DNA of 64,000 nucleotides from Macrostomum hystrix. Lineage: Eukaryota > Animalia > Platyhelminthes. The notes below the pieces were generated by a model. It was not told where the DNA came from and searched no databases. It saw nothing but the letters and a program-made list of their open reading frames with translations. Position 1 is the first letter of the stretch, and each line of letters begins with the position of its first letter. Made by a program: the position numbers and the translations under genes. Positions 43,201-64,000 of this stretch are shown piece by piece. Location of the stretch: positions 20,956,001 to 21,020,000 of the forward strand of contig CATNEN010000038.1 of assembly GCA_950097015.1 (NCBI GenBank), given 5' to 3'.

Positions 43201-44756
43201 AGAGTCATAGGGTGACAGAGAGTCATAGGGTGACAGAGAGTCATAGGGTGTCAGAGAGTCATAGGGTGTCAGAGAGTCATAGGGTGTCAGAGAGTCATAG
43301 GGTGTCAGAGAGTCATAGGGTGTCAGAGAGTCATAGGGTGTCAGAGAGTCATAGGGTGACAGAGTCATAGGGTGTCAGAGAGTCATAGGGTGTCAGAGAG
43401 TCATAGGGTGTCAGAGAGTCATTGGGTGTCAGAGAGTCATAGGGTGACAGAGAGTCATAGGGTGTCAGAGAGTCATAGGGTGTCAGAGAGTCATAGGGTG
43501 TCTGCGTTATTAGGCGCAAGTGTATTTAAAGTCAGCGATTTGCCTGCACAGGCGCGTTGCCTTGACAACTGGCGGCTAGGACACGCAGCGCAGCCGTGGC
43601 AGCATTGCTAGCCTCAGCGGACTCATTGGCATAGGATCCATTCACCTGGCCCATCAGCAAGTCCAGGCCGCCAAGTTGAACAAAATTCTGGGCATTATCG
43701 ATCTGTCGTAGGTGGTACTCAAATTCCCCAAGAATTCGAAGACGATTAACCGGGTCAGCCGAAGATACAGCCCACTCAGCTAGAAGATCTTTAATTATTT
43801 CCAAGTCTGTCTTGATACCAGCGTTCAGCTTGGCAAAGTCGGCCTATAAAATTATTGATAAATTGAGATACAAAAATATAGAGAGATTTTTGGACCTTAT
43901 ATTTAGAAAGGAAGATCTGGATGACTGAATACTTAATCTGGGGATCTGAGAGGATAGAAATTTATCCTCAATATGACGATCTGAGATGACGGCGGCTCAT
44001 GTTGTAGGTCCTCCAATATGAGGATCTGAGATGATGATGGCTGATCATCACCAATATGAGGATCTGAGGTGATGATGGCTGCTCATTACCAGCATGAGGA
44101 TCTAAGGTGATGATGGCTGCTCATCACCAACATGAGGATCTAAGGTGATGATGGCTGCTCATCACCAACATGAGGATCTGGGATGATAGCAGGTAAATTA
44201 AGCAATGAAAAAGCACCTTTAACTCTTCATAGCTTCGAAACTGACTGGAGCTCGAATCGGCGCCATCACTACTGTCGCTAGCCAGGTTCTCGGCTTTGAT
44301 TTTTTTCAATGCCTCTTTCATTCTTCGACTACTCAGAGCCTCACGCAGCGTCTCGGATGTCAATCCTCCAATCTTGTCATCTTCATTTTCTCCTGCCGTC
44401 TCCTTGGCCGAGTTGGCTTCGTTGTTATTGGCAACCAAAGCAGGGAGATTAGCATCAGTCTGAGCCTGATCACCTGGCGGCATCAATCTGGCTTCAGTGT
44501 GGCCTGTCTGAATGTTCATGCGCACATGTAGTCCAGGAGGAATTCTCTGGCCAGGTAATACCAAACGCCACTCTTGCGTGGCGACAAAGTCGCTACTGGC
44601 AGCAGTAGATTTTGTATCTATGGCAACACCTTGACGCTTACAATAGACACTAATTGGCAATTGAATTAGGCACATTATGACTAACAGAGTTAGAGCTGCG
44701 AGCAATGTAGCCTGTTTTGCAAACTGACGATGTGAAGAAGTGAGAAGATTTGGCAT
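40281..44756 (-). CDS. SIL1: SIL1 (BiP nucleotide exchange factor), 4 exons (44756-44217, 43843-43544, 41773-41639, 40802-40281; ~498 aa)
   Basis: Signal peptide; FVATQEW...IPPGLHVRMNIQTGHTEARL; FRSYEELK|ADF; EYHLRQIDNAQNFVQLGGL; NAPVQ|VAAIKAG; RNFPLAQ|TVLLKSGGL; GWC; C-terminal SIEL (KDEL-like). Intron 2 is GC-AG. Confidence 0.93.
40824..41570. repeat. 32-bp minisatellite (GAGATTTTGAGTTTACTCCAAACTGAGAGGGT)n in SIL1 intron 3
   Basis: Tandem repeat. Confidence 0.93.
41850..43502. repeat. 18-bp/36-bp minisatellite (TAGGGTGTCAGAGAGTCA and dimeric variants) in SIL1 intron 2
   Basis: Tandem repeat with three sub-domains. Confidence 0.93.
43970..44190. repeat. Degenerate 38-bp minisatellite in SIL1 intron 1
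   Basis: Units of TGAGGATCTAAGGTGATGATGGCTGCTCATCACCAACA. Confidence 0.8.
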
Positions 44757-47569
44757 GGTTTTCTGTTCTGTAATTTGTTAGGAGCATTGTGTATACATGG
44801 ACAGAACCTTTGAAAGGCACCATCAATTTCTTAAAACATAATGTTTACTAAGTCTGTGTACTTATACAAAAAAGTCTGTACAAAAGTGTAGTCTTTAATT
44901 GCTAGAGACACTGGTCCCAGAATATATGTAGCTAGGAGTCACAATAACAACCTAGCTTGTCTTCCTATGCAAGTAAAGTCTGGAAAAAATTTGTAAATAA
45001 ACTTTTTGAGTAAGTCAAATGTCATTAATATGTGACAACATTAACATAGCTAAGTTGTTATATACTAACTTAAATGCTTAAAATACCAAATTGGATATCA
45101 AATAAAGTCTCTAAGCATTTTATATTAAAAAAATAGTTAATAGGCCTAACAATGTGTTTGATAGTTGATACATGTGTTTCACTGACACATATTGTTAACA
45201 TTTACAATAAACTCTTACCAAAAGGAATCTATAAATAACATAATAACATCAACCAGACTAGTCAATTTTTTTAATCCATGTCCATGCCACAGATCCATGA
45301 ATTTGAAAGTCAACTGATTTGCTTTCCTAATGACACATATTGCATGCATTATAAATTTAAGGCGTATTATTAAACAACAAATCATCAAACAACAAATTGA
45401 TTATTACCCTATAAAATAAAATAATTAAATTAAATGCACATCACACAACAACAACAGTTAGCTCTAGCCTAACTGAACATCAACAGATTTTATAGCAATA
45501 GGCCTACTGTATGATTTGTTTTTGACACTTAGGCCTATCCACCTATTGTTGTCATTGTATGAAAAACAATTTTGTTATTTTTATATTCACTCTATAAATA
45601 CCTGTTTTGCTATTTGTACAGCCATCATAAGTCCATACAAACAACGACTGCCTTTTATATATTTGCTCTAATAACAATTTGGTTAGGCCTAGGTGAAGGG
45701 GTGTGACTGAAATAAAATAAAGATCATGATTCCCGAGGCAAGTGAAATAATTTGATTTTGGCACAAATACTTAGACCTAGGCTATAGTCTATAGAAATTG
45801 GCCGCAGTGGCTATTTTTAGAGGGAATATATAGCATATTCAAATGGGGTCCCATTGAAATACAAATAGGACAAATAATGGTTAAAATTCGAGGCAATAGC
45901 TCGATATCCAATCATAGGCAAATTATGAAAACGTGAAAATATTAAAGCTAAAAATAGAGACAGGTATGCGAAAAAACAATCATACTACCTCTATTAAATC
46001 CCATCAAGCCTAGAAGATGCATAGGTATATAAACCAAATTATCTTACACGTCCAGAGATGGTAATTGTTGAATGTAGATTTTCTGGAAAAATGATGACGC
46101 CGAAATATAGAATGTAATTTTTACTTCTGTAGATAAAATGAAAATAAACAGCAAAAATGTATGCGTTACAGTTATCGCCTTTATGCTTATTTACATATAA
46201 TTTTATAGCAAATAAAAACATTCGTTAAGCTACTTTCCTTTTTTGCCTGCTCGATTAGAATCTCCCTTTCTTAGAAGTCGGTGCTTAACTAAATTTACAA
46301 AAAGCTGAGCTCCCGTAGTGCCTATGCTGTAGATGCATGCGTTTTTTATATTTTTTCCAGACTTTTATGCACAGAGGGTTTCCCAAGATTTGCAAAACTA
46401 TCTTAAATTTTTTCATGTATAGTTGACTAATCGAGACTACTTGAAATTATATTGGCAATATTGCTAGTTAGGTCGAAGTGCAGTCCGGAAAAATTGCCAA
46501 CGAGGAGCGAAGCGAGCGAAGCGAGCGTAGCTCCTCGTTGGCAATTTTTCCGGACAAACGAGACCGATATAAGATTGCCCGGAGACTCCCCCAACGTAAA
46601 ATCAACGTTTTAGAAAATAAAATTGATGCAGAATTAAAACCACTTGAGATGAAACCATGTGTGACCCCTCTATGGACGTAAAACATTTAGGGCTACAAGA
46701 TGAGTGACGTGAAAGTTCCATAGCAACGCGTCTTGGTTGCCATGGCAACAAAAAAGTGACTTTTTTTAGACCCATCGAAATCTTGAATCTTAAAAAATAA
46801 GGATTCACAATATGGAGTCAAAAATTGATTGAACCCAACTTTTGGCGAATTTTTAGACCTTCAAGACACTGATTGGTTATTTTCCGCTAAATGCTTACCT
46901 TGATAGGTAATTCTGTAAAAGTGTGTTTTTTAAGTGTCAAAAAATGCACATTTTTTTTAACTTTCAACTGACGCAGCTCAAAGGTCGCGCGTCAGCGCGA
47001 CCTTTGAGCTGCGTCATTCTAACGATGGCACCTGGGACTCTTACATGACGCACGACTTTAACCAAGATACTCACTTTAACTGTACATTCGCACCTGTTAA
47101 TTACATTCGAATATTCGACGGGTAGGTATTCGAACCGAAATAAAGGAAATTCAACCTTGTTGCGAGGTTCTAAAAAGTACATGAATGCGGTCATTCAGGT
47201 AAGATCTACATGTTTATAATACATTTTGAGCCGTTTCGTTCCACTGACTCTGAGCCATACACTGCTAAAGTCGATAAACGTGATTTAGGCTATTTTTATG
47301 CATTTTTCATGATACAAATGTACAAAAAATAAGCAACGACGACATGCTAGGAAAATCAGACTTTTTAGGCAAGGTGCACAACTAAATTTCGCACAATTTG
47401 TATATCTTGAAATTTCGTCTTAGTTTATTGAAGTCGCTGCCGGTACAGAAATGTACTTTAACGACGGTACGGGGGGCTTGCATATCGAACATACTTTTTA
47501 GCCTGTAACTTTTGAACGGATTACCGGAGCGCGACGCACTTGGTGTCATTGAACTACATTTTAGATGTA

Positions 47570-48628
47570 CTTTAATTTGAATGTATGTTCGCTGTCATTG
47601 CACGATGCGTTGTACACCTCAGGACAGGTCACGTGACTTGCTGGAAATGAAATAATGACTTTGTACCTATACTAAGGATAGGTGAAGCGTAAGAATGAGC
47701 CAAAATTTGTACTTATTAGAAACACCTAGATGACTACTGTCAGAAAAAATGATATTCACGTCTGTCAGTTGCAAAATTTTGTTATAATTGACTTTTAAAA
47801 TCGAAAAACGTGATTTTGTGCAAAAACAACCCATATGAGCACACATAGGGTGAAAAATTTATTGATTTTCGCTATGAGGTTCTTAGCTTCCAAGAGCACT
47901 ATTGTGCCCAGTAAACACGTACAGATGACTGCTATCTTCGTTAGTGTGCGAAAATTCGTATTTTTACGCTAATAACATTTACCGAATTACGAGGTTCCGG
48001 TGTTATGCGTTTTTTTGCTATATTTCACGCTGCCATTTATTAACGATGCTACGCCAGGCCTTCAGTGTGGTGTCAATAGTTAGCATTTAAAAAGTGCTTT
48101 AATTTGAGTGTATGTTCGCTGGCATTGCACGATGCGTTGTACACCTCAGGCCAGGTCACGTGACTTGCTGGAAATGAAATAATGACTTTGTACCTATACT
48201 AAGGATAGGTGAAGCATAAGAATGACCCATATTAGTACTTATTAGAAACATCTAGATGACTACTCTCAGAAAAAGTGACATTCACGTCTGTCAGTTGCAA
48301 AAAAAATTTTTAATTGACTCTCAAAATCGGAAAACGTGATTTTGTGCAAAAACAACCCATTTGAGCACTACATAGGGCGGAAAATATATTAATTTTCGCT
48401 ATGAGGTTCTTAGCTTCCAAGAGCACTATTGTGCCCAGTAAACACGTACAGATGACTGCCATCTTCGTTAGTGTGCGAAAATTCGTATTTTGACGCTATT
48501 AACATTTTACCGAATTACGAGGTTCCGGTACTATGCGTTTTTGCTATATTTCACGCTGCCATTTATTAACGATGCTATGCCAGGCCTTCAGTGTGGTGTC
48601 AATAAATAGCATTTAGCAAGTGCTTTAA
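47570..48628. repeat. Two ~527-bp tandem units inside the element left arm (also ~54460-55520 in copy 2)
   Basis: TGTATGTTCGCTG.CATTGCACGATG at 47582 and 48109. Confidence 0.85.
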
Positions 48629-50213
48629 GATGACATCATGCGCATTGCGTTGCGTAAAAGTGTGGGTCCACAGTTTCGTAACAAGTTAAAATGACCTGAT
48701 TTCGCAAAAATCTTTAAAAGAAAAAATACCAAATAGATAACTAAAAAGCCTTTTGAAACTGAATAAAAAATGCATATAAAAGTGCTATTTTGTAACGTAA
48801 AAAGTCTTGCGTCCTGCAAAAATCTTCTATGGTGACTTTTTGGAGCCGTGAAGTGTAAAAACGTGCGCATTTTTAAAGCTGCTGAACTTACTTTTTGAGG
48901 TATATTTTGAAAATAAGCATTTTATAAATTGTATAACAAAATTTAATTGAAGAAAGAAATAAGTTGCTTCAAAATCTGAATTAAAATAATTTTTAAATAA
49001 TCAAATTGTACATTTCAGTCGTTCTGTTTCATATGGTTTCTACACGAAAATAAAATTCAAATCGGCTATGTTAACATAGCATTCGAAATTTTTGTCGTAC
49101 GGCAAATTTGACATAAAAATTTCAAAGCAACTTAACCAAGCAATCACTATCTAAATCTGAATTTTTTTCAAGCCTTTAATCTGTAGCTATTATATTCGCT
49201 TTTTACTCTATATATTAGTATCCTACTACCTTATAAATACTTGTTTTACAATATATTGTGTTGTAGGGCTATTTACTAAAATCTCACAGCCGTCACCAGT
49301 TGTCGTAAAGCCCTTCTCTTTATTTTTATTCTTTATAAATTACTTATATTTATCCACTGCAAAAATGCTTATTTAAATGTCAACTTTCGTTATGTTTTAA
49401 AAATTTCCCTATTTATAGGGAAGTATAGGCCTAACACTTTAATATAAATTCAATTACTGTGGTAGCAAATCATAAGTGCCCGAGTGGTAAGACACTTTTA
49501 CTTTTAACTGTATAGAATTATTCTTTTAATACTTATTGATCACACCCAGTCTTTAAAGGCTCCAACTGATTGGAGGGTACCAGACAAACACAACATATTT
49601 ATTTCTATCCAAAACTGGCCTTTTGCTATCGTCTCGATAATAAACTGCCCTCCAATACGTTTTATGTATTCCCATTGTTATTTCCTCTTTATAACAATTT
49701 TTATTCAAAGAACACATGCATTCAGCAAATCTTATTCTTGAACTTGGGTTAAGCTCCCAAAAGTTAGTTTTTCTCCCTACAGCGCGCATATATTTATAGC
49801 AAAAATTGGGGGTGGGTATGCATATTTAAACAAAAATTAAAGTGTAGTTAAACAACGGTGAACAACGGTAAAAATATATATTAAATTGGAAATCAGAATG
49901 ATAAAATTCCTAGCCAAGTTTTCTAAGAAAGCCATAATAAGTGCTACTAATTATTAGTACTTACTCCAGTAGAAGAAATATCTGTCCTGACTCCTCACCA
50001 TTAATTAAACAAACCCGGTAGTTAGTCCTCGCCGGTTGTCTACGCCGGTTCGTCATATTGCATGACGGTTAGCAACATGCATATAAATAGCATTCGATTC
50101 GAGAAATATTCAAACAATCAACAGTTTCGGAATCGCCATCGAATGACCGCACAGCAAGTTCTGCTGGAGATAGGCCTAAGCAAAGCTAGGAAATGGTAGC
50201 GTAGTACGCGTAG

Positions 50214-50737
50214 CTAGAACATCGTAGACACTGGCATCAGCCATTCTTTTGCATCGCTGTAAGCGAGAAAACATCCAAAGCCGAGACCAACCAGTCGTAC
50301 TAAGTTTGTCTTTGGCTCTTGACTCGGTTGATCAGGAGACCAGAGCAGATTCAGATTGTTGCAAGTAAGTCCCATCAAATACACGGACTCTTTGTTCATC
50401 ACGACCAGTCGGCGACTGACCACTGCGATGTCGACAACATTTTCTACTGGAATCTGAGAGTGCTCTTGAACTTCCAGTGTCTCCGAAGACAGGCACAAAA
50501 GTTTTGAGTTGCTACCGAGAACGAATATTTTGCTGGCACAGCCCGTTACTCACAAAGGGTGCTCAAATTGGAGTAAGCACACAGTGTGGAGCACTGAGCC
50601 AGCCAAATCTGTCACCACTAGGTTTGAATCAAAAAACAACAAATAGAACTGCTGTTGTTTGTCGCTACAGTAACAAGACATCAGGTCAGATAGGTGTGAC
50701 ACTTCCCATTTGGCGATGTGGAGAGGCTCTCCGCTTG
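50214..50737 (-). pseudogene. Cargo 1: ~175-codon beta-strand-rich (possibly beta-propeller) reading frame with one in-frame TGA at 50550-50552
   Basis: GEPLHIAKWEVSHLSDLMSCYCSDKQQQFYLLFFDSNLVVTDLAGSVLHTVCLLQFEHPL*VTGCASKIFVLGSNSKLLCLSSETLEVQ...MPVSTMF*; the frame is open right up to the arm junction. Fold is inferred. Confidence 0.5.
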
Positions 50738-51113
50738 TAAATATATAAATATTTGTAGAAATTGATTTATTAGGCCTAGTCTAAATGTGTGCTAATTAGA
50801 CAATAAAAACAATTGAAGTATGTAGCTAAATATTTTGAAAAGCCTACTCCTAACATTTACCAAACTAGTGTTTAGCATTAAGAAAGTATATTTGCCTGTT
50901 TAAATTGCACTTTTTGTTGTTGTGATTTGGAATCACATTAACAACAATTATAACACAGCTGTTTTAATAACAAAATGAATAATAAATAATACACAAATGA
51001 AGAAAAAAAATTTAAACAATCCATTTTAGATTTAAAACTATAAATGATTATAATGTTAAAGTTAGAAGCATTATATTTCTATAGGGCCTATGCTTTGTTT
51101 TTATAATAATAAT

Positions 51114-51933
51114 TGTTGTACTCGCGACTTCCCAGAGGGACGCCCCTAGGAGGGTCAGAGTACGCGGGCCCGTGCTGGCCTGCGTCAGGGCGCGAGTGTC
51201 CGCACGGGACCCTAAGTCTGGGGCGTCAGGACGCACCCAAGTGGCCGGCACACGCGTCGGGACGCTGTGATGTTGATCACCCTTCAGTGGGGCGTCAGGG
51301 CGCACAAGCTGGCGTCTGAGTACAGCGGGCGTACAGTACAGGGTGACCCCTGGCTGGCAACCTGGTCTAGTCCCCCTCCTTAGTCGGCGTCAGGACACAC
51401 GGACGGTCCCCACTACAGCCCCCGAAATGAAGGAGACAAGGCAGCGACTTACTTCTGGTTCACTCGCACTCGTGCGTGTAGTCAACTTCGTGCAGCGGAC
51501 TTCTGATTGCGGCTGGCAGACTGGGTGGTCGATATTTATTAGTTATTATTTGTGCGTGGGGGACGGGTTATGGAAACAGTAGTCAGGCGTTGTAGAGCGT
51601 GAACACGCGCACGGGGGAGCCACCCGCCCCCGGCCGCGCCTTTATAGGACACGGCTCACCAAGGGCCGGGGCCCCCCCCCGCCCCACCCCCACCCACCAC
51701 CCCGGCCCAGCCACCCACCGGCCAATCACGGCGCAGCTGGGGGAGGGGCAGCCTGGGGCGAGGACCAAAAAGGGCGGCCCAGCCAACCAGCGCGCAGCCA
51801 ACACAATGGCGGCTAAGCGGCTTACACCACTGAGCCTTTAACGCCAAAACAACAATGCCAAAAACAACTGCGAGTGCACTTGTTGCGCGGGGGGGCGAGT
51901 GCACTTGAGCAGTGCAAGCGCACGTGCACAACA
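51114..51933 (-). mobile_element. Solo LTR (820 bp, TGTTGT...ACAACA, 4-bp TSD TAAT) inserted in the right arm of copy 1
   Basis: Absent from copy 2 (empty site ATAATAATAAT|ATAGAC at ~59036). GC-rich. Minus-strand TATAAA at ~51646-51641 followed by AATAAA at 51540-51535. Confidence 0.88.
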
Positions 51934-52230
51934 TAATATAGACAATATGATATTTAAGCCTAACTATCTTTGTTTGTTCCTTTTTAAACAGCTATAGCAG
52001 TGTAATATGACAATATAATATGGTGCCTAGAAAATGTAGTGTCCTAGTTGTGCCACTATCAGTAGGCCTAGGCCTATTTGATATCATTGGATGAGATGCC
52101 TAAGCAACAAGATAAGCAAAGGCACATTAGCAGATTTGTTATTGACAAAGTTAATAGGACTAGGTGTACAGGTGGATAGTAGCATGGCCAATATAGCATT
52201 GGGGCCTAGTCAGTAAAATTAGTAAAATTT

Positions 52231-52398
52231 TACACCACTTCACACCTCTTCAGATGCAATGCCAGGCCTACGGAGATCACGTTAGAAAACCTCTGGACTG
52301 ATCCTGTTAAGGCCGCCACCTTCCTGAGACTACCGACGAGCGAGGTAGAGTGTGAGCGTCCCGAACTAGCCTAAAGGAAGGCTACAACATACAACACA
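52231..52398 (+). mobile_element. 3'-terminal fragment of a non-LTR retrotransposon in the element right arm (second copy ~59330-59497)
   Basis: Translates to YTTSHLFRCNARPTEITLENLWTDPVKAATFLRL...*, resembling the C-terminal end of LINE ORF2 proteins, followed by an ACA-rich tail. Confidence 0.55.
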
Positions 52399-53358
52399 TT
52401 GCTAATCCGGGCTGCATCTCGCTGCTTTTATATATTTTTTGTTAATTAAAAGTAAAGTACTTGTCTTCGTTCCTCGAACCCAGTTTCTGTTTAAGGCAGT
52501 GTTTTCACAGTGTACTCTTTGAGCACTCTTAAGTACTCGTACTCTGGTACTCTTTAAGGGCGTAGCAATAGAGTACTCTGGTATTCATTTAAAGTGCGTA
52601 CTTTGAAGTGGGCGAGTACTTTTTAAAGTGCAACGCATTTCAGTCTGTCATCATCAATCCTAATTTTGTACTATATGAAAGTGTCAATAATCGCTGGTAC
52701 ATTAGTACATTCTCGCAACGTAAAATTAGTAGATTTATTATATGCATTTTAAAGATACGTTGCTTAGTAAATAACAGATATGTTATCAGTCCCATTAATT
52801 ATACCCTACGTACAGAAGTAACACAACATAATATATATGGTAACGTGGCTTGATGGCACTGCTAATGTGTGTGTCTGCCCATTCGTGTTGTTGCATGTAC
52901 AAAACAAGTGCTGTTTGGATAAATCTTTCCTTTAATTATGTTTTACGTTTTTTGACAGATGGGCATAGATAGATAGGTAGATAGATCTCATACTGTCTCT
53001 CTCACTCTCCGATTCTCCGCGCTCCCTCCCGCTGTTTTAATTTTGTTTATTTTGTTCCCTAATAAAAACATAAATTCACCCTCTCCCTCCATATGTGGGT
53101 CCCACATTCGGCTGTCAGTCAGTCAAGGAGATATTAGCGCTCATCAAGATTTTGATACAGGAGTCAATGATGCAGTAGTCTGCTCTATTAAAGTGCTTCA
53201 GTGAGTATCCTCAGTACAAAGGCCGCTAAGTTTTGGAATATTTATTAAGTCTTTTGTTCATTTTATTGGGTGACATGATCAGAAGTAAAAAATAATTTCG
53301 AAATATTGAGCAATTAATGCACTTCGACCTGCTAAGGTGGCACACCTTCAATCTAGTT

Positions 53359-56300
53359 AGGTCGAAGTGCAGTCCGGAAAAATTGCCAACGAGGAGCGAA
53401 GCGAGCGAAGCGAGCGTAGCTCCTCGTTGGCAATTTTTTCGGACAAACGAGACCGAGATAAGATGTGCTTGAGACTCCCCCAACGTAAAATCAACGTTTT
53501 AGAAACTAAAATTGATGCAGAATTAAAACCACTTGAGATGAAACCATGTGTGACCCCTTTATGGACGTAAAACATTTAGGGCTACAAGATGAGCGACGTG
53601 AAAGTTCCATAGCAACGCGTCTTGGTTGCCATGGCAACAAAAAAGTGACTTTTTTTAGACCCGTCGAAATCTTGAATCTCAAAAAATAAGGATTCACAAT
53701 ATGGAGTCAAAAATTGATTGAACCCAACTTTTGGCGAATTTTCAGACCTTCAAGACACTGATTGGTTATTTTCCGCTAAATGCTTACCTTGATAGGTAAT
53801 TCTGTAAAAGTGTGTTTTTTAAGTGTCAAAAAATGCGCATTTTTTTCAACTTTCAACTGACGCAGCTCAAAGGTCGCGCGTCAGCGCGACCTTTGAGCTG
53901 CGTCATTCTAACGATGGCACCTGGGACTCTTACATGACGCACGACTTTAACCAAGATACTCACTTTAACTGTACATTCGCACCTGTTAATTACATTCGAA
54001 TATTCGACGGGTAGGTATTCGAACCGAAATAAAGGAAATTCAACCTTGTTGCAAGACTCTAAAAAGTACATGAATGCGGTCATTTAGGTAAGATCTACAT
54101 GTTTATAATACATTTTGAGCCGTTTCGTTGCACTGACTTTGAGCCATACACTGCTAAAGTCGATAAACGTGATTTAGGCTATTTTTATGCATTTTTCATG
54201 ATACAAATGTACAAAAAATAAGAAACGACGACATGCTAGGAAAATCAGACTTTTTAGGCAAGGTGCACAACTAAATTGCGCACAATATGTATATCTTGAA
54301 ATTTCGTCTTAGTTTATTGAAGTCGCTGCCGGTACAGAAATGTACTTTAACGACGGTACGGGGGGCTTGCATATCGAGCATACTTTTTAGCCTGTAACTT
54401 TTGAACGGATTACCGGAGCGCGACGCGCTTGGTGTCATTGAACTACATTTTAGTTGTACTTTAATTTGAATGTATGTTCGCTGTCATTGCACGATGCGTT
54501 GTACACCTCAGGTCAGGTCACGTGACTTGCTGGAAATGAAATAATGACTTTGTACCTATACTAAGGATAGGTGAAGCGTAAGAATGAGCCAAAATTTGTA
54601 CTTATTAGAAACACCTAGATGACTACTGTCAGAAAAAAAGATATTCACGTCTGTCAGTTGCAAAAAAATTTTATAATTGACTCTCAAAATCGAAAAACGT
54701 GATTTTGTGCAAAAACAACCCATATGAGCACACATAGGGTGAAAAATTTATTGATTTTCGCTATGAGGTTCTTAGCTTCCAAGAGCACTATTGTGCCCAG
54801 TAAACACGTACAGATGACTGCTATCTTCGTTAGTGTGCGAAAATTCATATTTTGACGCTAATAACATTTTCCGAATTACGAGGTTCCGGTGTTATGCGCT
54901 TTTTTGCTATATTTCACGCTGCCATTTATTAACGATGCTACGCCAGGCCTTCAGTGTGGTGTCAATAATTAGCATTTAAAAAGTGCTTTAATTTGAGTGT
55001 ATGTTCGCTGGCATTGCACGATGCGTTGTACACCTCAGGCCAGGTCACGTGACTTGCTGGAAATGAAATAATGACTTTGTACCTATACTAAGGATAGGTG
55101 AAGCATAAGAATGACCCATATTAGTACTTATTAGAAACATCTAGATGACTACTCTCAGAAAATGGGACATTCACGTCTGTCAGTTGCAAAAAAATTTTAT
55201 AATTGACTCTCAAAATCGAAAAACGTGATTTTGTGCAAAAACAACCCATTTGAGCACTACATAGGGCGGAAAATATATTAATTTTCGCTATGAGGTTCTT
55301 AGCTTCCAAGAGCACTATTGTGCCCAGTAAACACGTACAGATGACTGCCATCTTCGTTAGTGTGCGAAAATTCGTATTTTGACGCTATTAACATTTTACC
55401 GAATTACGAGGTTCCGGTACTATGCGTTTTTTTGCTATATTTCACGCTGCCATTTATTAACGATGCTACGCCAGGCCTTCAGTGTGGTGTCAATAAATAG
55501 CATTTAGCAAGTGCTTTAAGATGACATCATGCGCATTGCGTTGCGTAAAAGTGTGGGTCCACAGTTTCGTAATAAGTTAAAAAGACCTGATTTCGCAAAA
55601 ATCTTTAAAAGAAAAAATACCAAATAGGTAACTAAAAAGCCTTCTGACACTGAATAAGAAATGCACATAAAAGTGCTATTTTGTAACTTAAAAAGTCTTG
55701 CGTCCTGCAAAAATCTTCTATGCTGACTTTTTGGAGCCGTGAAGTGAAAAAAACGTGCGCATTTTTAAAGCTGTTGAACTTACTTTTTGAGGTATATTTT
55801 GAAAATAAGCTTTTATAAATTGTATAACAAAATTTAATTAAAGAAAGAAATAAGTTGCTTCAAAAACTGAATTAAAGTAATTTTTAAATAATCTAATTGT
55901 ACATTTTAGTCGTTCTGTTTCATATGGTTTCTACAAGAAAATCAAATTCAAATCGGCTATGTTAACAGTAGCATTCGAAATTTTTGTCGTACGGCAAATT
56001 TGACATAAAAATTTCAAAGCAACTTAACTAAGCAATCACAATCTAAATCTGAATTTTTTTCAGGCCTTTAATCTGTAGCTATTATATTCGCTTTTTACTC
56101 TATATATTAGTATCCTATTGATTTGGATATTGATTGATTGATTTGATTTGTTTTGCATTTTTAAAGATACTAGGCCTATGTATAATTATGGACTTAGCTA
56201 AATAATTAGCCTAGGCCTACCTAATGTTGGGTAACTTGTATTGATTGGCAAAGCATTTCACTGCAAAGGCATATCTTGTGGTTTCAGATTTTCATCTTTA

Positions 56301-59300
56301 GAATTCCTAATCCAAATATACAGAATGTCCAAGATTTTCTATTATGAGTATTATTTATTGGACCTTAGTATATGATGTTAATTCATGTGGCTCACTTTGA
56401 TTTTTAAGTCTATTTAATAGAACTTTGTGATAAAAAATTAATGAATGGTAAATTATAATTAATTAGGCCTAGTCACACAGGACATCTGTAGCTATAAAAA
56501 CTTAGCATCTAAGTAGTTTACAATAGTTTAGCATTTTTAGGGTTTTATGTGTTGCAAAACTGTTTGCTTTCTACAGTATTTGGCTTAGGGCTGCATCCAT
56601 AATTGGAAACAATAAGCTTCTAGATATGTACATTAGAGACATATCTAGTATGTCTGTAATGTCTCTAGCTGTAACAAAAGAAAGAGCTTGTTACAGCTGG
56701 TGGTGTGTCTATGACGGATTTCACAATCTACTTCAAATTAAAAATAAGACTTCCCAACTTCAGCAATCCTGCCAAAACGAAGAAAATGAATGCAACTCAC
56801 AAAGATCTGTGATCTGCGATTTGATCTGCAAATTCCAAGATCGAACAACAGGTATCTACTTGAGTTAGAATTGAGTGATTTTAGAGACTTGTCAACATAT
56901 ATATTTGCTTCTTGGAGTCAATTGATACACAATAGAACACAAAGTTATTGTCAAAATAACGAATATAAAATACAAAAATAAATCAACAAGGAAAAAACGA
57001 GCACTATTTTTAATCCGCACAAGGCATGCTATCCACAAAGAATGACTATTATGAAATTTAAAAGTACACAAAAAACCTTAAAAAATAAATTTTCGTCCAA
57101 TTTACAACTGCAATAAGGCGGAAGGCCTTTTTGTTTACGAGTTGGAGTGGCAGCAAAGTTTGTGCTGCATTGCACGTATATTTATATACAATGCGAGAGC
57201 GAGATAGAGGGGTCTAGGGAGGTGTGAACTGGTGGCGTGACTTCATACCCCGGCTTAGCAAGCCGGCTGGCTGGGTGCACCAACCCCCACCTCAACTAGA
57301 CTGAGGTTGAGGGGTTTTGGGTGCGGCTGCACTGGCGCTGGTCACGTGTTGACTCTACGCCACAGCAAAGTATTATTCTTTTAGTTTCGATGACAAAAAG
57401 ACATTCTCGTAGTGGAAAGTTCCAAGGCAAGGATGAAATGCAAAGATACATTTCTACACATTGCCATTATTTCGAAGAAATAAGCATATTGGCAGGAGTA
57501 AGTCATGAAATAAAATCCTATTGTTGACACTTAGAAGCAATAACCAAAGCACAGGCACAAACTTTGTCACTTCTGAGATGCTAATTAACCCTGAACACAG
57601 ATTGACATTCAAATAAAAACTGTTGATTTCGTTATTTAATAACAATATTGGCAAATTAAAAGCTGAAAATTGAGCAAATGTTCTATCGATCAGGCACAAG
57701 GTTCAATTAAAATCATTTGATGCAGCCATATCAAATTGAACTAAGAAGACTAAAAAACTAAAAAGACAGGGGGAAGCTAAAAACATAAAATAAATCATAA
57801 AAACAAGATTGGACAGCACAAAGGACATAAGATCTAATTGATTTTAGCTGGGGAAGCGATACCAAGCAAGGGGCACCTTAATTTTTTGTAAAATGACACA
57901 CACAGTAGCAACCAACATTAATAGTGCGCTAGGTCCCACACAACTAGTTTCCAAGCAGTTCAATTAGACCCTGACTGGCCAGCGGCCATTGCTAGACCGG
58001 TCCACAATGTGCCTATCGTTACTGATGGTGACACGCAGGCTGCCAGTGTTGGCCTTGCCAAGGCGCACCAACTGACAGGGCAACTCCTCGTCGCTTTCCT
58101 CATCGACTCTGATAACAGACAGACAGACCCGCTGCCGCTGCTGCTTATAATCAGACTGATAATAGTTGGCGTTCTCATCTCGGCTCCGAGAAGACTGAAT
58201 AGTAGTGTAGCGCAGTTTATAGCGACTGTGAAGCTTCTCCTGCTGGAGTGCGCGCTGGCCAAAGCTCTGCGATCGAAAAGCGCCACCACCTCGACTAGCG
58301 CCTTGGTTGGCGCCACCTGTTCTCTGTCGCTGGATAAGCGAGCAGATGTGGCTTGTCTCCTCTGTTTCTCGACCAAATGCGACTAACTCGCCATTCACTA
58401 GGTGGATGTAGCCTACATTAGGCAAGCTGCGCATTAGTGAAGTCACATTGTCATGTCCAGCCAGATCGAGGGCGTGCCCGGCCAGGGCCCTGTACTGGGC
58501 CTGCAGCTCGCATAGTCGGACACCATTCTTAGTGCTGAGAAGTACAGCCCGAAGCAGGCTGTCTTGAGCAGTGGGGCTGGGAGTCGACATGAATAAACAG
58601 CTGAAAATCAATATATAAGGATTAGAGCAAAGAGGCTAGCTAAGGAAAATGCTGTATACTTCATAAATATATAAATATTTGTAGAAATTGATTTATTTGG
58701 CCTAGTCTAAGTGCTAATTAGACAATAAAAACAATTAAAGTATGCAGCTAAATATTTTGAAAAGCCTACTCCTAACATTTACCAAACTAGTGTTTAGCAT
58801 TAAGAAAGTATATTTGCCTGTTTAAATTGCACTTTTTGTTGTTGTGATTTGGAATCACATTAACAACAATTATAACACAGCTGTTTTTAATAACAAAATG
58901 AATAATAAATAATACACAAATGAAGAAAAAAAATTTAAACAATCCATTTTAGATTTAAGACTATAAATGATTATAATGTTAAAGTTAGAAGCATTATATT
59001 TCCATAGGGCCTATGCTTTGTTTTTATAATAATAATATAGACAATATGATATTTAAGCCTAACTATCTTTGTTTGTTCCTTTTTAAACAGCTATAGCAGT
59101 GTAATATGACAATATAATATGGTGCCTTGAAAATGTAGTGTCCTAGTTGTGCCACTATCAGTAGGCCTAGGCCTATTTGATATCATTGGATGAGATGCCT
59201 AAGCAACAAGATAAGCAAAGGCAAATTAGCAGTTTTGTTATTGACAAAGTTAATAGTACTAGGTGTACAGGTGGATAGTAGCATGGCCAATATAGCATTG

Positions 59301-60458
59301 GGGCCTAGTCAGTAAAATTAGTAAAATTTTACACCACTTCACACCTCTTCAGATGCAATGCCAGGCCTACGGAGATCACGTTAGAAAACCTCTGGACTGA
59401 TCCTGTTAAGGCCGCCACCTTCCTGAGACTACCGACGAGCGAGGTAGAGTGTGAGCGTCCCGAACTAGCCTAAAGGAAGGCTACAACATACAACACATTG
59501 CTAATCCGGGCTTCATCTCGCTGCTTTTATATATTTTTTGTTAATTAAAAGTAAAGTACTTGTCTTCGTTCCTCGAACCCAGTTTCTGTTTAAGGCAGTG
59601 TTTTCACAGTGTACTCTTTGAGCACTCTTAAGTACTCGTACTCTGGTACTCTTTAAGGGCGTAGCAATAGAGTACTCTGGTATTCATTTAAAGTGCGTAC
59701 TTTGAAGTGGGCGAGTACTTTTTAAAGTGCAACGCATTTCAGTCTGTCATCATCAATCCTAATTTTGTACTATATGAAAGTGTCAATAATCGCTGGTACA
59801 TTAGTACATTCTCGCAACGTAAAATTAGTAGATTTATTATATGCATTTTAAAGATACGTTGCTTAGGAAATAACAGATATGTTATCAGTCCCATTAATTA
59901 TACCCTACGTACTGAAGTAACACAACATAATATATGGTAACGTGGCTTGATGGCACTGCTAATGTGTGTGTCTGCCCATTCGTGTTGTTGCATGTACAAA
60001 ACAAGTGCTGTTTGGATAAATCTTTCCTTTAATTATTACGTTTACGTTTTTTGACAGATGGGCATAGATAGATCGGTAGATAGATCTCATACTGTCTCTC
60101 TCACTCTCCGATTCTCCGCGCTCCCTCCCGCTGTTTTAATTTTGTTTATTTTGTTCCCTAATAAAAACAAAAATTCACCCTCTCCCTCCATATGTGGGTC
60201 CCACATTCGGCTGTCAGTCAGTCAAGGAGATATTAGCGCTCATCAAGATTTTAATACAGGAGTCAATGATGCAGTAGTCTGCTCTATTAAAGTGCTTCAG
60301 TGAGTATCCTCAGTACAAAGGCCGCTAAGTTTTGGAATATTTACAATGGTTTTTTGTTCATTTTATTGGGTGACATGATCAGAAGTAAAAAATAATTTCG
60401 AAATATTGAGCAATTAATGCACTTCGACCTGCTAAGGTGGCACACCTTCAATCTAGTT
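53359..60458 (+). mobile_element. Non-autonomous Helentron-like element, copy 2 (head-to-tail with copy 1), carrying a LOTUS gene
   Basis: Same 5' subTIR (53359), left arm to 56117, right arm 58664-60458, with 3' subTIR (60418-60430), palindrome and CTAGTT. Confidence 0.75.
57964..58590 (-). CDS. Cargo 2: stand-alone extended LOTUS (OST-HTH) domain protein, TDRD7/TDRD5-like N-terminus, 208 aa, intronless
   Basis: LLRAVLLSTKNGVRLCELQAQYRALAG...SLMRSLPNV...GRETEETSHICSLIQRQR parallels the TDRD7 N-terminal LOTUS, including the C-terminal extension helix. Acceptor TTTTCAG lies 10 nt before the ATG. No Tudor domain. Confidence 0.8.
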   Translation of the reverse strand: MSTPSPTAQDSLLRAVLLSTKNGVRLCELQAQYRALAGHALDLAGHDNVTSLMRSLPNVGYIHLVNGELVAFGRETEETSHICSLIQRQRTGGANQGASRGGGAFRSQSFGQRALQQEKLHSRYKLRYTTIQSSRSRDENANYYQSDYKQQRQRVCLSVIRVDEESDEELPCQLVRLGKANTGSLRVTISNDRHIVDRSSNGRWPVRV

Positions 60459-62227
60459 TGTTGGTAGCTTATTGTTGTTGTTAACTTATCGCCGCTTATA
60501 AAATTAGGCTTATCGTCAATTTTTTGGTCAAGTCCGTTCCTTCTAGGCCTACTATATGATTTCAAAGCGGTCGACGAACTTTTCTCACGATTTTGCTACT
60601 GTTGACAAAGTATTTTAATTTTCTGCTTACCACATGGCAGCTTGTATCATTGTATGAATAAGTCTAAAACTCATTATAGGCCCCTATAAATATGCCGTGC
60701 CATTAATTTCAATTTTATCCACATGGTTCTGTTTTTTGAAATGAGGCCCTTTTGGGTTTGAACGTTTTGTTGAACCCTCGAGCCAATAGATTGACAAAGT
60801 TGCCAATGTGTTACGATATGACTGTGTTCTATACCATACTCTCAAATCTTACATGTACACTGAAAAAATTCGGTGTACATTTGCACTAGATTAGCTGGGG
60901 TATATGTATTTCCGGCGTACACAGTGCATACTGGGATACATTGGCATATTAGCGTATATTGGCATACATCGGTGTATGCTGCCATATGCCGGCTAGCAGT
61001 GCTGCGCAGGCAGAGGCAGACAAGCTGCAGGCACACATGTTGTGTGGGCATGCGGCTTGCATTGCATTGCACTTAGAAAGCGAAACATTCCATGAAATGA
61101 AATTGAAAAAATAGCATTTTAATTCAGATTGTTGAAAGAAGAGTAAAACAAAATTCCACAAAAGGATCATTGAATGGAAAACTTGATGGTGAATTTCTGT
61201 GTTGCATAAATTTTTTATTATTTTTTTGGCCCAGGGCCAATGTCGGCATGCTTTTTATCCCTACGTTTTAGGCACTAAAATTACTTTTTTCTTGTAAAAT
61301 GATGCACATTGTTTTTTTAAATTTTGCATACAGTTGCTATTTCTTTCTAGCATACATTTTATGGGCTACAGTTTGCTTCCACCGTACATTTCATTTTCTG
61401 GTGTACAAGACCAAGGCGTACAGTTAAGCACATTTGTGAGTATGGGTTCTACATTTTGACCTACACATTCATTAACTGACATTATGTTATCCTTTTTAAT
61501 TATTGTAGGCCTAATTTAACAACTTACTAAATCTTTTGTCACCGTTACATGTTTTCATTCAAATTGTATTGACTTAAAAAGTAAGAAGTCTATCAAAGAA
61601 AATCATACAAGTCAACCAGGAGAATTCTAGTCAGCACCAAACTCATCACACATATTATCACACATCATTGTTATTATTTTACACTATGCATTGATAGTGT
61701 ACACTATACACTATACTCTGAAGCAAAAGCCTTATGCTCAGAGAAGAATAGGTAGGGACTTGAAAGTAGACCTATTCATACAAGCTGCCGTGTGGATAAA
61801 ATTGAAATTATTGGCACGGGACCATGGGAATAAGCACTTCCTAATGATTATGCCATTTTGGATTTGTTCATGCCAAGCTTTTAAACTAAACTTTATTTCC
61901 ATTTGTCTGTTTCAGATGTTCTTCTGATGCACACTAAAATAAATGCCACCTGTAATGTACAGCAGACAGTGACTGTGTTGTATGACTTGACTGACTTGAC
62001 TTAGCTGCAGGGCGGTCCCATAGAGGGACACAGCAGGAAGACGATGCTGCCCATTCCGCTATTCCCTGAATGACCAAGGCTCCATCACGGACTAGGAGTT
62101 GGCATCACCCAGGGTGGTCCCTTGGAGTTGCTCTCTGCAGCCATGTTGCTCCCTGGAAGAGGGAGTGCAGCTCTGTGGGTGGCCCAAAGGTAGCGCGTGA
62201 ACTGATTAAGTGTTGTATGACACCTCT

Positions 62228-62508: not shown

Positions 62509-62864
62509 ACACCTCTGTGGACCTCTTTGTGGACCTGTAAGTTGCGCCTAGATTGGACTCGACATTAGCAAATCGAATATTGGGTGTGTTGGAAATGAAT
62601 GATAAAAGGTGTAGTATTGTAATAAGTCACATTAGTTGCTGTTATTTAAAGTAAAAAATAAGAAAAATGCCTTTAGATATTTAAATTATATATAGTGAAT
62701 AGCCAATACTACCACAGCTCTGACCAAAATCAAAAGCAGAGGCAAATTTCTTCCTTTCGAACTGGCAAATTTTGAGGTGGGTATTTACACCTGCATTCTA
62801 GTGTGAGTTGTCCTAGGGAGAGCAAAGGTTTGCTCAAATACTCATTTTTCATGCATTTATATTG

Positions 62865-63425
62865 GGCGATCTTTCGGTTCCCCTGCTCTAAATTATTTTA
62901 ACAATTTTTTCAAACTTTTCAGAGTCTGTTAGGTAAAGTTCAGGTAAGTAAAATATTAAGTTAATTAATTATTAGACTGGATAGTACTGGGTGATCCAGT
63001 ATAGGATGTTGCCAAAGTGGTGTTCAGGGAAAGCTCGACGCCACATGAACTCTTGCAGGTAGTTCTCCTCCTTCGAATTGAACGAAGCCTCTTGCACTGC
63101 TTGCAGGACCATGCAGCACCAGCCATCGATGGAGTCCTCGCCGAGACGTTGCTGAAGTGACATAGCAATGTCACAGGTCTAGCAATTCCTGCTATTGGCA
63201 AGCAGGTGGTGCCTCGCCATCCAACGCATCACCTCGTCAACATCGGGACCAATGCAACCAGTCCTCGATGATTGACATCAATGTCACACAGAACTATGCT
63301 GTTCAGGACTTCGGTGGCTGGAACAATGCTCTGTGGCGCAGGAGGTCGACCAGCCATACTAGCAGTAGCTGAAACGTTTGAAAAAATCGTTAAAATAATT
63401 TAGACTGGGAAACCGAAAGATCGCC
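62865..63425 (-). mobile_element. Internally deleted Merlin (IS1016/ISXO2-like) DNA transposon
   Basis: ~57-bp imperfect TIRs starting GGCGATCTTTCGGTT; 8-bp TSD TTATATTG/ATATATTG (1 mismatch). Remnant transposase with N-terminal Zn ribbon (LLANSRNC..C...WSCKQCKRLRSIR) joined to the C-terminal YLQEFMWRR...F.NIL..I.QYYP; DDE core missing; stops and frameshifts present. Confidence 0.85.
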
Positions 63426-64000
63426 ATATATTGTATTATGTATACATATATATTAGTCACATATATATCTAAATTTATCTATACTAAAGTCAATAAGCTC
63501 TTTTATTTTTTCTATAACTAGGTGATCCTGACTTTTAAACAATTATTGCTATTCTAAAGGATTACCAAGCATTTATGTTCAAACAGTTCAAACTTTTTAT
63601 ACATATAGGCAAAGTAATCAATAAAATATTATGAAAAATCTAATTGTTTCATTTTTTGTTCAAGTGTTGTTTCATTAGCTAATGTAATTTAGGCAAGCAG
63701 TTAAAAAATAAAACGGACAAGTTTAGCTGTCTAAAGCAGTAGTCAAGAGCTATGCTATTTGATGGAAAGCTTACCATGATAATTTAATTATGGTTTTATG
63801 TAGTACTGCTCACTGATTGCCTTATAATTATAGTTAGCCTATCTAATTCCCATAGGGCACAAAAATATTAGTCATTGTAAAGTTTGTTTGCAAAATCTCT
63901 TAAACAACTTATTTCAGTTTTTTTAAACAAAATATAAAAGCTGACTATAGCTAATGAATGGCTGCTGATAGCAATGTCAGATCTGATGCTCAGCAGCAGG

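What the first reader, a model, noticed from the sequence alone, without database searches (positions are those of the whole stretch)
57964..58663. Transposon-borne stand-alone eLOTUS gene: possible piRNA-pathway decoy
Seen: an intact, intronless 208-aa ORF inside element copy 2, with a LOTUS domain, the extension helix (ETSHICSLIQRQR), a low-complexity R/G/S/Q tail, no Tudor domain, and its own splice acceptor. Known: extended LOTUS domains of TDRD5/TDRD7/Tejas/Tapas/Oskar bind and stimulate Vasa in germ granules of the transposon-silencing pathway. Inference: a mobile element carrying only the Vasa-binding module could titrate Vasa as an anti-silencing factor, or could seed a lineage-specific LOTUS family.
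Basis: partly seen in the sequence, partly recalled or inferred. Interest (0 to 1): 0.85.

Follow-up and report, generated by a model that had tools for sequence, protein, structure and literature searches.

The report
Transposon-amplified flatworm Vasa-binding gene
In a Macrostomum-type flatworm, a repeat with the ends of a rolling-circle transposon carries an intact copy of an ordinary small host gene whose protein is predicted to bind, but only weakly activate, the germline helicase Vasa; it most likely rides as a passenger, and a role in blunting transposon silencing is untested.

Summary
The 208-aa ORF (57964-58590, minus strand) is real. It is an extended-LOTUS (eLOTUS) protein without Tudor: Pfam, PDB and the folded model agree, and the Vasa-contact residues are kept. 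It sits in the second of two head-to-tail 7-kb units whose ends look like a non-autonomous Helentron (13-bp subterminal inverted repeats, 3' stem-loop). It is not a transposon-made truncation. M. lignano has a same-length ortholog (Mlig017850, 41% identity), its orthogroup occurs in four Macrostomum transcriptomes, and it belongs to an existing Macrostomum LOTUS clade. The first unit carries an unrelated, broken host-gene fragment in the same slot, at similar read depth, so this family captures genes generally. One DNA-like run puts the LOTUS part at about 9 times the flank depth, nearly all joined to the element arm; RNA-like runs hold it too. One feature fits the decoy idea: the basic tail that Tejas needs to stimulate (not bind) Vasa is missing. 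The host ortholog lacks it too. Verdict: whole-gene capture and amplification of a likely bind-but-weakly-activate eLOTUS gene; anti-silencing is possible (about 12%) but unsupported. Vasa binding and germline expression were not tested.

The parts
57964..58590 (-). Intact 208-aa ORF: eLOTUS domain (aa 8-91), Gly-rich linker without a basic stretch, variable tail, conserved C-terminal motif; ortholog of M. lignano Mlig017850
58318..58569 (-). eLOTUS domain, aa 8-91; A15, I82 and R90 align with Oskar A162, L228 and K236
   Evidence: alignment read against residue numbers; model
58601..58607 (-). Acceptor-like TTTTCAG 10 nt upstream of the ATG; use not shown
   Evidence: sequence; no joint or leader in 4 of 4 runs
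58174..58289 (-). 116 nt skipped in one contig of run X6 (GT..AG ends, weak acceptor, 3-nt ambiguity); gives a 107-aa eLOTUS-only frame
56118..58663 (.). Cargo of unit 2 (2546 bp): the LOTUS gene with 73 nt of upstream and about 1.8 kb of downstream DNA; no other copy in the window
53353..60458 (+). Unit 2 of the Helentron-like non-autonomous element (arm A 53353-56117, cargo, arm B 58664-59036, arm C 59037-60458); longest open frame in the arms 87 aa
46464..53358 (+). Unit 1, head-to-tail with unit 2, sharing the hexamer CTAGTT at 53353-53358
53359..53371 (+). 5' subterminal inverted repeat of unit 2 (13 bp; unit 1: 46470-46482), followed by a long hairpin (53372-53444; 46483-46555)
60418..60448 (+). 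3' subterminal inverted repeat (60418-60430) and 6-bp stem-loop (60434-60448); unit 1: 53318-53348
60453..60458 (+). CTAGTT at the right end; the same hexamer is at the junction (53353-53358) and at the left end (46464-46469)
54430..55519 (+). Two internal tandem copies of about 527 bp in arm A (unit 1: 47541-48628)
49226..50737 (.). Cargo of unit 1 (1512 bp), unrelated to the LOTUS cargo
50214..50737 (-). Broken fragment (one in-frame stop, front part missing) of a host gene, 50% identical to M. lignano Mlig032293 / Mlig016575; the latter has a weak N-terminal RING hit, TRIM-like by inference
51114..51933 (.). Solo-LTR-like insertion in unit 1 only (TG..CA ends, 4-bp duplication TAAT); empty site in unit 2
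59351..59352 (+). Spliced-leader acceptor in arm C (unit 1: 52252-52253) for a + strand transcript pointing away from the cargo
   Evidence: loose end of run X5 equals the 3' part of the published leader; site

Best explanation
An intact copy of a conserved Macrostomum stand-alone eLOTUS gene lies inside a repeat with Helentron-like ends that likely captured and amplified it as a passenger, and its protein is predicted to bind Vasa but to stimulate it only weakly. Shown: the element anatomy, two different cargos between the same arms, the intact ORF, a same-length host ortholog, and higher read depth over element and cargo than over the flank. Inferred: (1) the element is non-autonomous and is moved in trans by a rolling-circle RepHel protein; (2) it took up about 2.5 kb of host DNA at the DNA level, since upstream and downstream flanks came along; (3) it likely prefers CTAG/TT targets, which its own 3' end recreates, so a second copy with another cargo landed directly behind the first; (4) the cargo is transcribed from its own upstream DNA or from arm B; (5) the protein docks on the Vasa C-terminal domain through helices 2 and 5 and, lacking the basic tail, acts as a scaffold or mild competitor, as the host gene likely already did. 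Any effect on silencing would be a dosage side-effect, not an adaptation of the element.
For: Ortholog of 218 aa, 41% identity over 95% of the query, ending at the same motif. Orthogroup OG0001688 in 4 of 4 Macrostomum transcriptomes. The window protein groups with M. lignano LOTUS proteins, support 96/84 (names). Unit 1 holds a broken, unrelated host fragment at the same two breakpoints. Run X4: flank contig depth 63, LOTUS 580, cargo-arm B junction 572, unit-1 cargo 722, arm B 933, arm C 1188-1608. Ends match the description of non-autonomous Helentrons in PMC4067079. Run X5 shows another, T-rich right flank. RepHel-type transcripts are annotated in M. lignano. The window protein and both ortholog copies have 0 K/R in the 7 residues after Q-K/R; 1 of 42 other eLOTUS proteins does, median 3.
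Against: The LOTUS cargo is intact while the other cargo is broken. 0 of 17 listed substitutions in the ORF fall in codons 1-91, while the tail shows 13 replacement and 4 silent changes; this hints at selection on the domain, which pure hitch-hiking does not predict (the changes are not independent, and contigs drop rare variants). About a third to two thirds of the arm depth carries LOTUS. Contig depth is not a copy number and X4 is DNA only by the tool's guess. No autonomous partner and no empty site could be looked for, because no genome is held. The hexamer at all three ends also fits a recombinase-type element.
Confidence: 0.63

Rival explanations
1. Protein decoy: the element keeps the gene because extra non-activating eLOTUS protein occupies Vasa and competes with activating LOTUS proteins, lowering piRNA output and favouring the element.
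For: Vasa-contact residues are kept and the stimulatory basic tail is absent. Tejas mutants with the same lack bind Vasa but do not stimulate it or rescue fertility. The domain shows no listed variant while the tail drifts. About 9-fold depth in X4. Runs with RNA-like features hold the ORF.
Against: The missing tail is ancestral, shared with the host ortholog. The sibling cargo is a pseudogene at equal or higher depth. The ortholog has no germline or neoblast label, unlike the basic-tailed paralog group OG0002518. A trans-acting decoy would help all transposons alike, so selection for the carrier is weak (inference). The word 'dominant' does not occur in the Tejas preprint's main text, so a dominant effect of such mutants is not reported there.
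Confidence: 0.12
2. Host-benefit amplification: the element spread the gene, and the host keeps extra copies because more of this LOTUS scaffold or regulator is useful.
For: Intact ORF and invariant domain. One species contributes 9 of 13 transcripts to the orthogroup, which may reflect an expansion or only isoforms. The group is up in adults and regenerants against hatchlings in one species.
Against: Tail changes look neutral (13 replacement on 269 sites against 4 silent on 82). Frameshifted forms are seen in minor contigs. Copies are young (arms 0.9-2.3% apart), so intactness needs no selection.
Confidence: 0.12
3. RNA-level counter-defence of the TART-nxf2 type: piRNAs made from the element-borne copy silence the host LOTUS gene in trans.
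For: Repeated capture of nxf2, aub and piwi fragments by Drosophila telomeric elements is described with this mechanism (PMC13534243, passages). Element-borne and variant copies are near-identical, so cross-targeting is possible.
Against: Here the whole ORF is kept in frame rather than a fragment. The only leader-bearing transcript seen points away from the cargo. No small-RNA data were available, and the gene is not shown to act in the piRNA pathway.
Confidence: 0.07
4. Not transposition: a local or segmental duplication of a mosaic of repeats that happens to include the host LOTUS gene.
For: The two units are adjacent, and parts of the cargo are themselves high-copy repeats. No empty site was seen.
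Against: The repeat boundary coincides with the inverted repeats and stem-loop. The middles differ completely. Another right flank exists in run X5.
Confidence: 0.06

Closest known systems
eLOTUS proteins Oskar, TDRD5/Tejas, TDRD7/Tapas (PMC5458760; bioRxiv 10.64898/2026.03.28.715021)
   Same: Winged-helix LOTUS with the C-terminal extension helix; small residue at the Oskar A162 position, Ile at L228, Arg at K236.
   Different: No Tudor or OSK domain; Gly-rich instead of basic stretch after the helix; carried in a repeat element.
C. elegans EGGD-1/EGGD-2 (MIP-1/MIP-2) (PMC8616582 passages; PMC8331183 start of abstract only)
   Same: eLOTUS plus disordered regions acting as Vasa (GLH-1) recruiters; shows that LOTUS-plus-IDR scaffolds are a known host type.
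   Different: Two LOTUS domains there, one here; they are host genes, not element cargo; no orthology was tested.
M. lignano Mlig017850 (orthogroup OG0001688) and its paralogs Mlig016662 / Mlig011525 / Mlig029870
   Same: Mlig017850 is the ortholog: same length, same architecture, same missing basic tail.
   Different: Whether the M. lignano copies lie in an element was not testable; the paralogs keep a lysine-rich tail, and the Mlig016662 group is labelled germline/testis.
Non-autonomous Helentrons (HINE, DINE-1; HLE2 type) (PMC4067079; bioRxiv 10.1101/2024.02.08.579435)
   Same: 13-bp subterminal inverted repeats, TT at the 5' end, 3' stem-loop, internal tandem repeats, no coding capacity, association with gene duplication.
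   Different: 7 kb long with two exchangeable gene-sized cargos; the 3' repeat is about 28 bp from the end (38-60 in the mite families); CTAG also precedes the left end; partner and empty site not seen.
[quoted passage not shown]
   Same: A mobile element holds sequence of a gene family tied to the piRNA pathway.
   Different: Those are retrotransposons with gene fragments thought to act through piRNAs; here a DNA element holds a whole intact ORF, and the LOTUS-free sibling is as abundant.
Helitron-mobilised multicopy SGNH hydrolase gene of the platyfish (PMC4021074, title in a search listing only)
   Same: Whole host gene captured and amplified by a rolling-circle element in an animal.
   Different: Different cargo; I saw only the listing.

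Membership tests
eLOTUS domain | LOTUS / OST-HTH winged-helix core | tested here: met
   Pfam at cut-off, PDB sequence hits, fold hits
eLOTUS domain | C-terminal extension helix (alpha 5) | tested here: met
   helix 80-91 in the model; H81, I82, Q89 conserved in 36-42 of 43 relatives
eLOTUS domain | Vasa-interface residues (small at Oskar 162, Leu/Ile at 228, Lys/Arg at 236) | tested here: met
   A15, I82, R90 by the alignment and the numbering
eLOTUS domain | Basic unstructured stretch after the helix, needed to stimulate Vasa | tested here: not met
   0 K/R in 7 and 1 in 10 residues; medians 3 and 4 in 42 others
eLOTUS domain | Binds Vasa | not testable with these tools
TDRD5 / TDRD7 / Oskar | Tudor (or OSK) domains behind the LOTUS domain | tested here: not met
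   no other Pfam family up to E 1; the ortholog ends at the same place; no longer close relative found, weak evidence
Non-autonomous Helentron (HINE) | 11-17 bp subterminal inverted repeats, the 5' one a few bases from the end | tested here: met
   13 bp, four exact copies
Non-autonomous Helentron (HINE) | Short stem-loop near the 3' end | tested here: met
   60434-60448, also in unit 1
Non-autonomous Helentron (HINE) | Insertion in TT without target duplication | tested here: inconclusive
   TT at all ends and a second T-rich right flank in X5, but a 6-bp direct repeat stands at all three ends and no empty site was available
Non-autonomous Helentron (HINE) | Autonomous RepHel partner with the same termini | not testable with these tools
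   no genome held; RepHel-type transcripts are annotated in M. lignano
Crypton-like tyrosine-recombinase element | 4-6 bp terminal direct repeats and no terminal inverted repeats | tested here: inconclusive
   6-bp repeat present, but inverted repeats and a 3' stem-loop are present too; PMC3212892 passages
Transposon anti-silencing cargo (TART-nxf2 type) | Capture fixed in all or most copies | tested here: not met
   LOTUS junction depth 572 against arms 854-1608 and sibling cargo 722 in X4; rough, one run
Transposon anti-silencing cargo (TART-nxf2 type) | Measurable weakening of host silencing | not testable with these tools
   needs small-RNA data and knock-down

The most novel reading that the evidence does not exclude
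Macrostomum has a natural non-activating eLOTUS protein, a brake on Vasa, and a Helentron-like element has captured the whole gene and raised its dosage about tenfold, turning a host regulator into a protein-level, dominant-negative counter-defence against the piRNA pathway.
Probability: 0.12. Interest if true: 0.85.

Novelty: new variant of a known kind. Interest (0 to 1): 0.48.

Why it matters
Gene capture by rolling-circle elements is known, and capture of piRNA-pathway gene fragments is known from Drosophila retrotransposons. My searches listed no case of a whole eLOTUS gene carried by a transposon, nor a description of this Macrostomum gene or element. Two things become testable. First, whether a natural eLOTUS protein lacking the basic tail acts as a Vasa brake, which the 2026 Tejas work makes a sharp prediction about. 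Second, whether an element family with two alternative cargos, one intact and piRNA-related and one broken, shows any advantage for the first: a built-in control for the anti-silencing idea, in a genus with RNAi and transgenesis.

Tried and rejected
No whole genome is held, so copy number, donor locus, empty sites and an autonomous partner could not be searched. Search for longer fused relatives: none at E up to 1 among 2311 candidates, weak evidence. Metagenome scan for related loci: 323 pattern matches, none confirmed. Run search: no listed holder is on record as RNA. ESM Atlas: best score 0.87, OST-HTH clusters, a lead only. Earlier findings of the scan: nothing by place, sequence or words. 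Mlig017850 occurs in no main text and not in the supplements read of PMC5730564, PMC12801592, PMC5816591 and PMC7806878; the supplement of PMC8629364, which may list trans-spliced genes, could not be read. No complex was folded because no Vasa sequence was available. Rejected: truncation of TDRD5/7 by the element (the ortholog has the same ends); retrocopy (flanks on both sides, no poly-A seen at the cargo end; the ortholog's gene structure is unknown); reading the X6 skip as a proven intron (weak acceptor, 3-nt ambiguity, one contig). In the tree I labelled P0024 as Macrostomum by guess; one search names it an ostracod protein, so the group row 'Mac_other' is void and only the five-row clade (96/84) is used. 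P0008 was left out of the alignment (its match is in the low-complexity part), P0012, P0027 and P0046 out of the tree as near-copies, and P0035 out of the tail count as too short. The P value of 5.7e-5 assumes independent changes and overstates the case. Holes in contig cover were not used as evidence.

Full report
OBSERVATION. The window is eukaryotic, and the two proteins searched (the LOTUS protein and the unit-1 cargo) have their closest relatives in Macrostomum lignano, so the source is most likely another Macrostomum; the species was not determined. The ORF 57964-58590 (minus, 208 aa) is there. It carries a LOTUS domain: Pfam PF12872, E 4.1e-5, at the curated cut-off and the only family up to E 1; Oskar, TDRD7 and TDRD5 LOTUS structures by sequence and by fold. 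The model has the extension helix at 80-91. The alignment, read against the residue numbers in PMC5458760 (passages) and bioRxiv 10.64898/2026.03.28.715021 (abstract, section 8 and passages), puts A15, I82 and R90 on Oskar A162, L228 and K236; the offsets of 66 and 8 residues agree. So it is an eLOTUS domain by sequence and predicted fold. Binding to Vasa was not tested.

THE ELEMENT. 46464-60458 is two head-to-tail units. They share arm A (2.3% mismatch), arm B (1.3%) and arm C (0.9%), and differ completely in the middle, at the same two breakpoints. Each unit starts with TT, a 13-bp repeat and a long hairpin, and ends with the inverted 13-bp repeat, a 6-bp stem-loop and CTAG followed by Ts. 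Arm A has an internal tandem pair of about 527 bp. The arms of unit 2 hold no frame longer than 87 aa. This matches non-autonomous Helentrons as described in PMC4067079 (passages) and bioRxiv 10.1101/2024.02.08.579435 (passages). One feature does not fit cleanly: CTAGTT stands at the left end, the junction and the right end. A Crypton-like 6-bp direct repeat (PMC3212892, passages) is therefore not excluded. My preferred reading, an inference, is a target preference for CTAG/TT that the element's own 3' end recreates; it would explain why two copies with different cargos sit in tandem, which one round of rolling-circle copying would not give.

THE GENE IS A HOST GENE. The only close relative among 371 candidates is M. 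lignano Mlig017850 (218 aa, 41% identity, 95% coverage; two copies). It is annotated 'partial', but it has a Met at the same place and ends at the same C-terminal motif. In the supplements of PMC7336406 (rows and passages) its orthogroup has 13 transcripts from 4 of 4 Macrostomum species, 9 of them from one species; it is classed non-specific, with no germline or neoblast label (a blank may also mean unannotated). A profile search of 1.84 billion proteins gave 45 hits; 42 of the 44 new ones have a LOTUS hit in Pfam, several with Tudor domains. In a tree of 43 LOTUS rows (90 columns) the window protein joins Mlig017850 (100/99) and then Mlig016662 and Mlig029870 (96/84). A Tudor-less Macrostomum LOTUS group thus predates this element, and LOTUS-plus-IDR scaffolds are known from C. 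elegans (PMC8616582, passages).

THE OTHER CARGO. Unit 1 holds a fragment 50% identical over 172 aa to M. lignano proteins of 442 and 604 aa, with the front missing and one in-frame stop; the longer one has a weak RING hit (E 0.014). So the same slot holds an unrelated pseudogene. Loose ends at 49259 and 58615 suggest further internal forms.

COPY NUMBER AND EXPRESSION, FROM RUN CONTIGS (rough). Six of 12 listed runs were laid (X1, X3, X4, X5; X2, X3, X4, X6). In X4, guessed to be DNA, the flank contig has depth 63, the LOTUS contig 580, the cargo-arm B junction 572, the unit-1 cargo 722, arm B 854-933 and arm C 1188-1608. That is about 9-fold for LOTUS, nearly all of it joined to arm B, and no excess over the broken cargo. 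The tool warns that depth is no copy number. X2 and X3 show a minor form that leaves the window sequence after 58673, possibly the donor locus; X4 does not list it. X5 has a loose end at 52253 equal to the 3' part of the published spliced leader (PMC5173321, passage), so X5 holds RNA although not recorded as such; X1 has an overhang of the same length there. Both hold ORF contigs, and the X1 contig runs 30 nt into arm B, one short of the tool's bar for a bridge. This is a hint that the gene family, and perhaps the element-borne copy, is transcribed; strand, level and cell type are unknown. No run showed use of the upstream acceptor.

VARIATION. Of 24 listed substitutions, 17 fall in the ORF, all in codons 92-201: 13 replacement and 4 silent, about what neutrality gives for the tail (269 and 82 sites), and none in the domain. 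Many lie on the same few contigs (one X6 contig has 10 differences) and contigs drop rare variants, so this is a weak hint of constraint on the domain. A 2-nt insertion in a minor X2 contig and the 116-nt skip in X6 both shift the frame of the tail and leave the domain intact.

THE MISSING BASIC TAIL. Tejas residues 94-100 are needed to stimulate Vasa but not to bind it, and such mutants localise but do not rescue. In the matching 7 residues the window protein and both ortholog copies have no K or R; 1 of 42 other eLOTUS proteins shares this, the median is 3, and the Macrostomum paralogs have 5. This is the best argument for a decoy-like biochemistry. It rests on transfer from Drosophila, arginines further along the tail might compensate, and it is an ancestral property of the host gene.

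MECHANISM AND VERDICT. Most likely (0.63) a non-autonomous rolling-circle element took up a host segment with the whole gene and copied it about tenfold as one of at least two cargos; the protein is predicted to dock on Vasa and to activate it weakly. Rivals: selected protein decoy (0.12), host-retained dosage (0.12), piRNA-mediated silencing of the host gene as described for telomeric elements in PMC13534243 (passages) (0.07), plain duplication (0.06). That Macrostomum has a Vasa is recalled, not from a call of mine beyond search listings.

NOVELTY. Gene capture by Helitron-like elements and capture of piRNA-gene fragments are known kinds. Searches for LOTUS with Helitron or capture (1 of 15 listed papers held the LOTUS term, on another topic by its title and abstract start), Macrostomum with Helitron, LOTUS, Vasa and Macrostomum, anti-silencing captures and the gene name listed no such case; the library lacks most subscription papers and I read listings only for most hits. 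PMC10468722 (passages) says the repeats of two Macrostomum genomes await detailed work. New variant of a known kind; interest 0.48.

Noticed in passing
window 46464-46469, 53353-53358, 60453-60458: The same hexamer CTAGTT stands at both outer ends and at the junction. The X4 flank contig stops at 46490, which suggests that another locus shares the bases just upstream of the left end: a target preference or a terminal direct repeat, unusual for Helentrons.
   Followed up: partly
window 49225/49226 with 56117/56118, and 50737/50738 with 58663/58664: Two unrelated cargos are exchanged at the same two breakpoints of the element, like a cassette slot; loose ends at 49259 and 58615 hint at more forms.
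   Followed up: partly
window 52253 and 59352, + strand: A spliced-leader trans-spliced transcript starts inside arm C and points to the element's 3' end; only short frames follow. Runs listed as DNA or unknown can thus be RNA.
   Followed up: partly
window 51114-51933: GC-rich solo-LTR-like insertion with TG..CA ends and a 4-bp duplication, in unit 1 only; high depth in X4.
   Followed up: no
window 60630-61480: Another very high-copy repeat just right of the element (depth above 20000 at 60629 in X4), with a short inverted pair 60695-60726 / 61788-61819.
   Followed up: no
window 62859-63431: Inverted repeats of 64 bp around about 450 bp, MITE-like; a frame inside has a weak PI3K accessory-domain hit (E 4e-4, below cut-off).
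   Followed up: no
window 9132-10622, 18378-19945, 40281-44756: Ordinary host genes: a rhodanese-domain (Cdc25-like by inspection) gene, an RRM gene, and exons that look like SIL1 (recalled resemblance; no Pfam hit).
   Followed up: no
window 2590-43500: Many long minisatellite arrays, including about 295 copies of a 22-bp unit from 29617 on, which give spurious long ORFs.
   Followed up: no
proteins P0009, P0012, P0044, P0056: M. lignano has several more LOTUS proteins without a Pfam Tudor hit and with lysine-rich tails; the Mlig016662 group is labelled germline and testis.
   Followed up: partly
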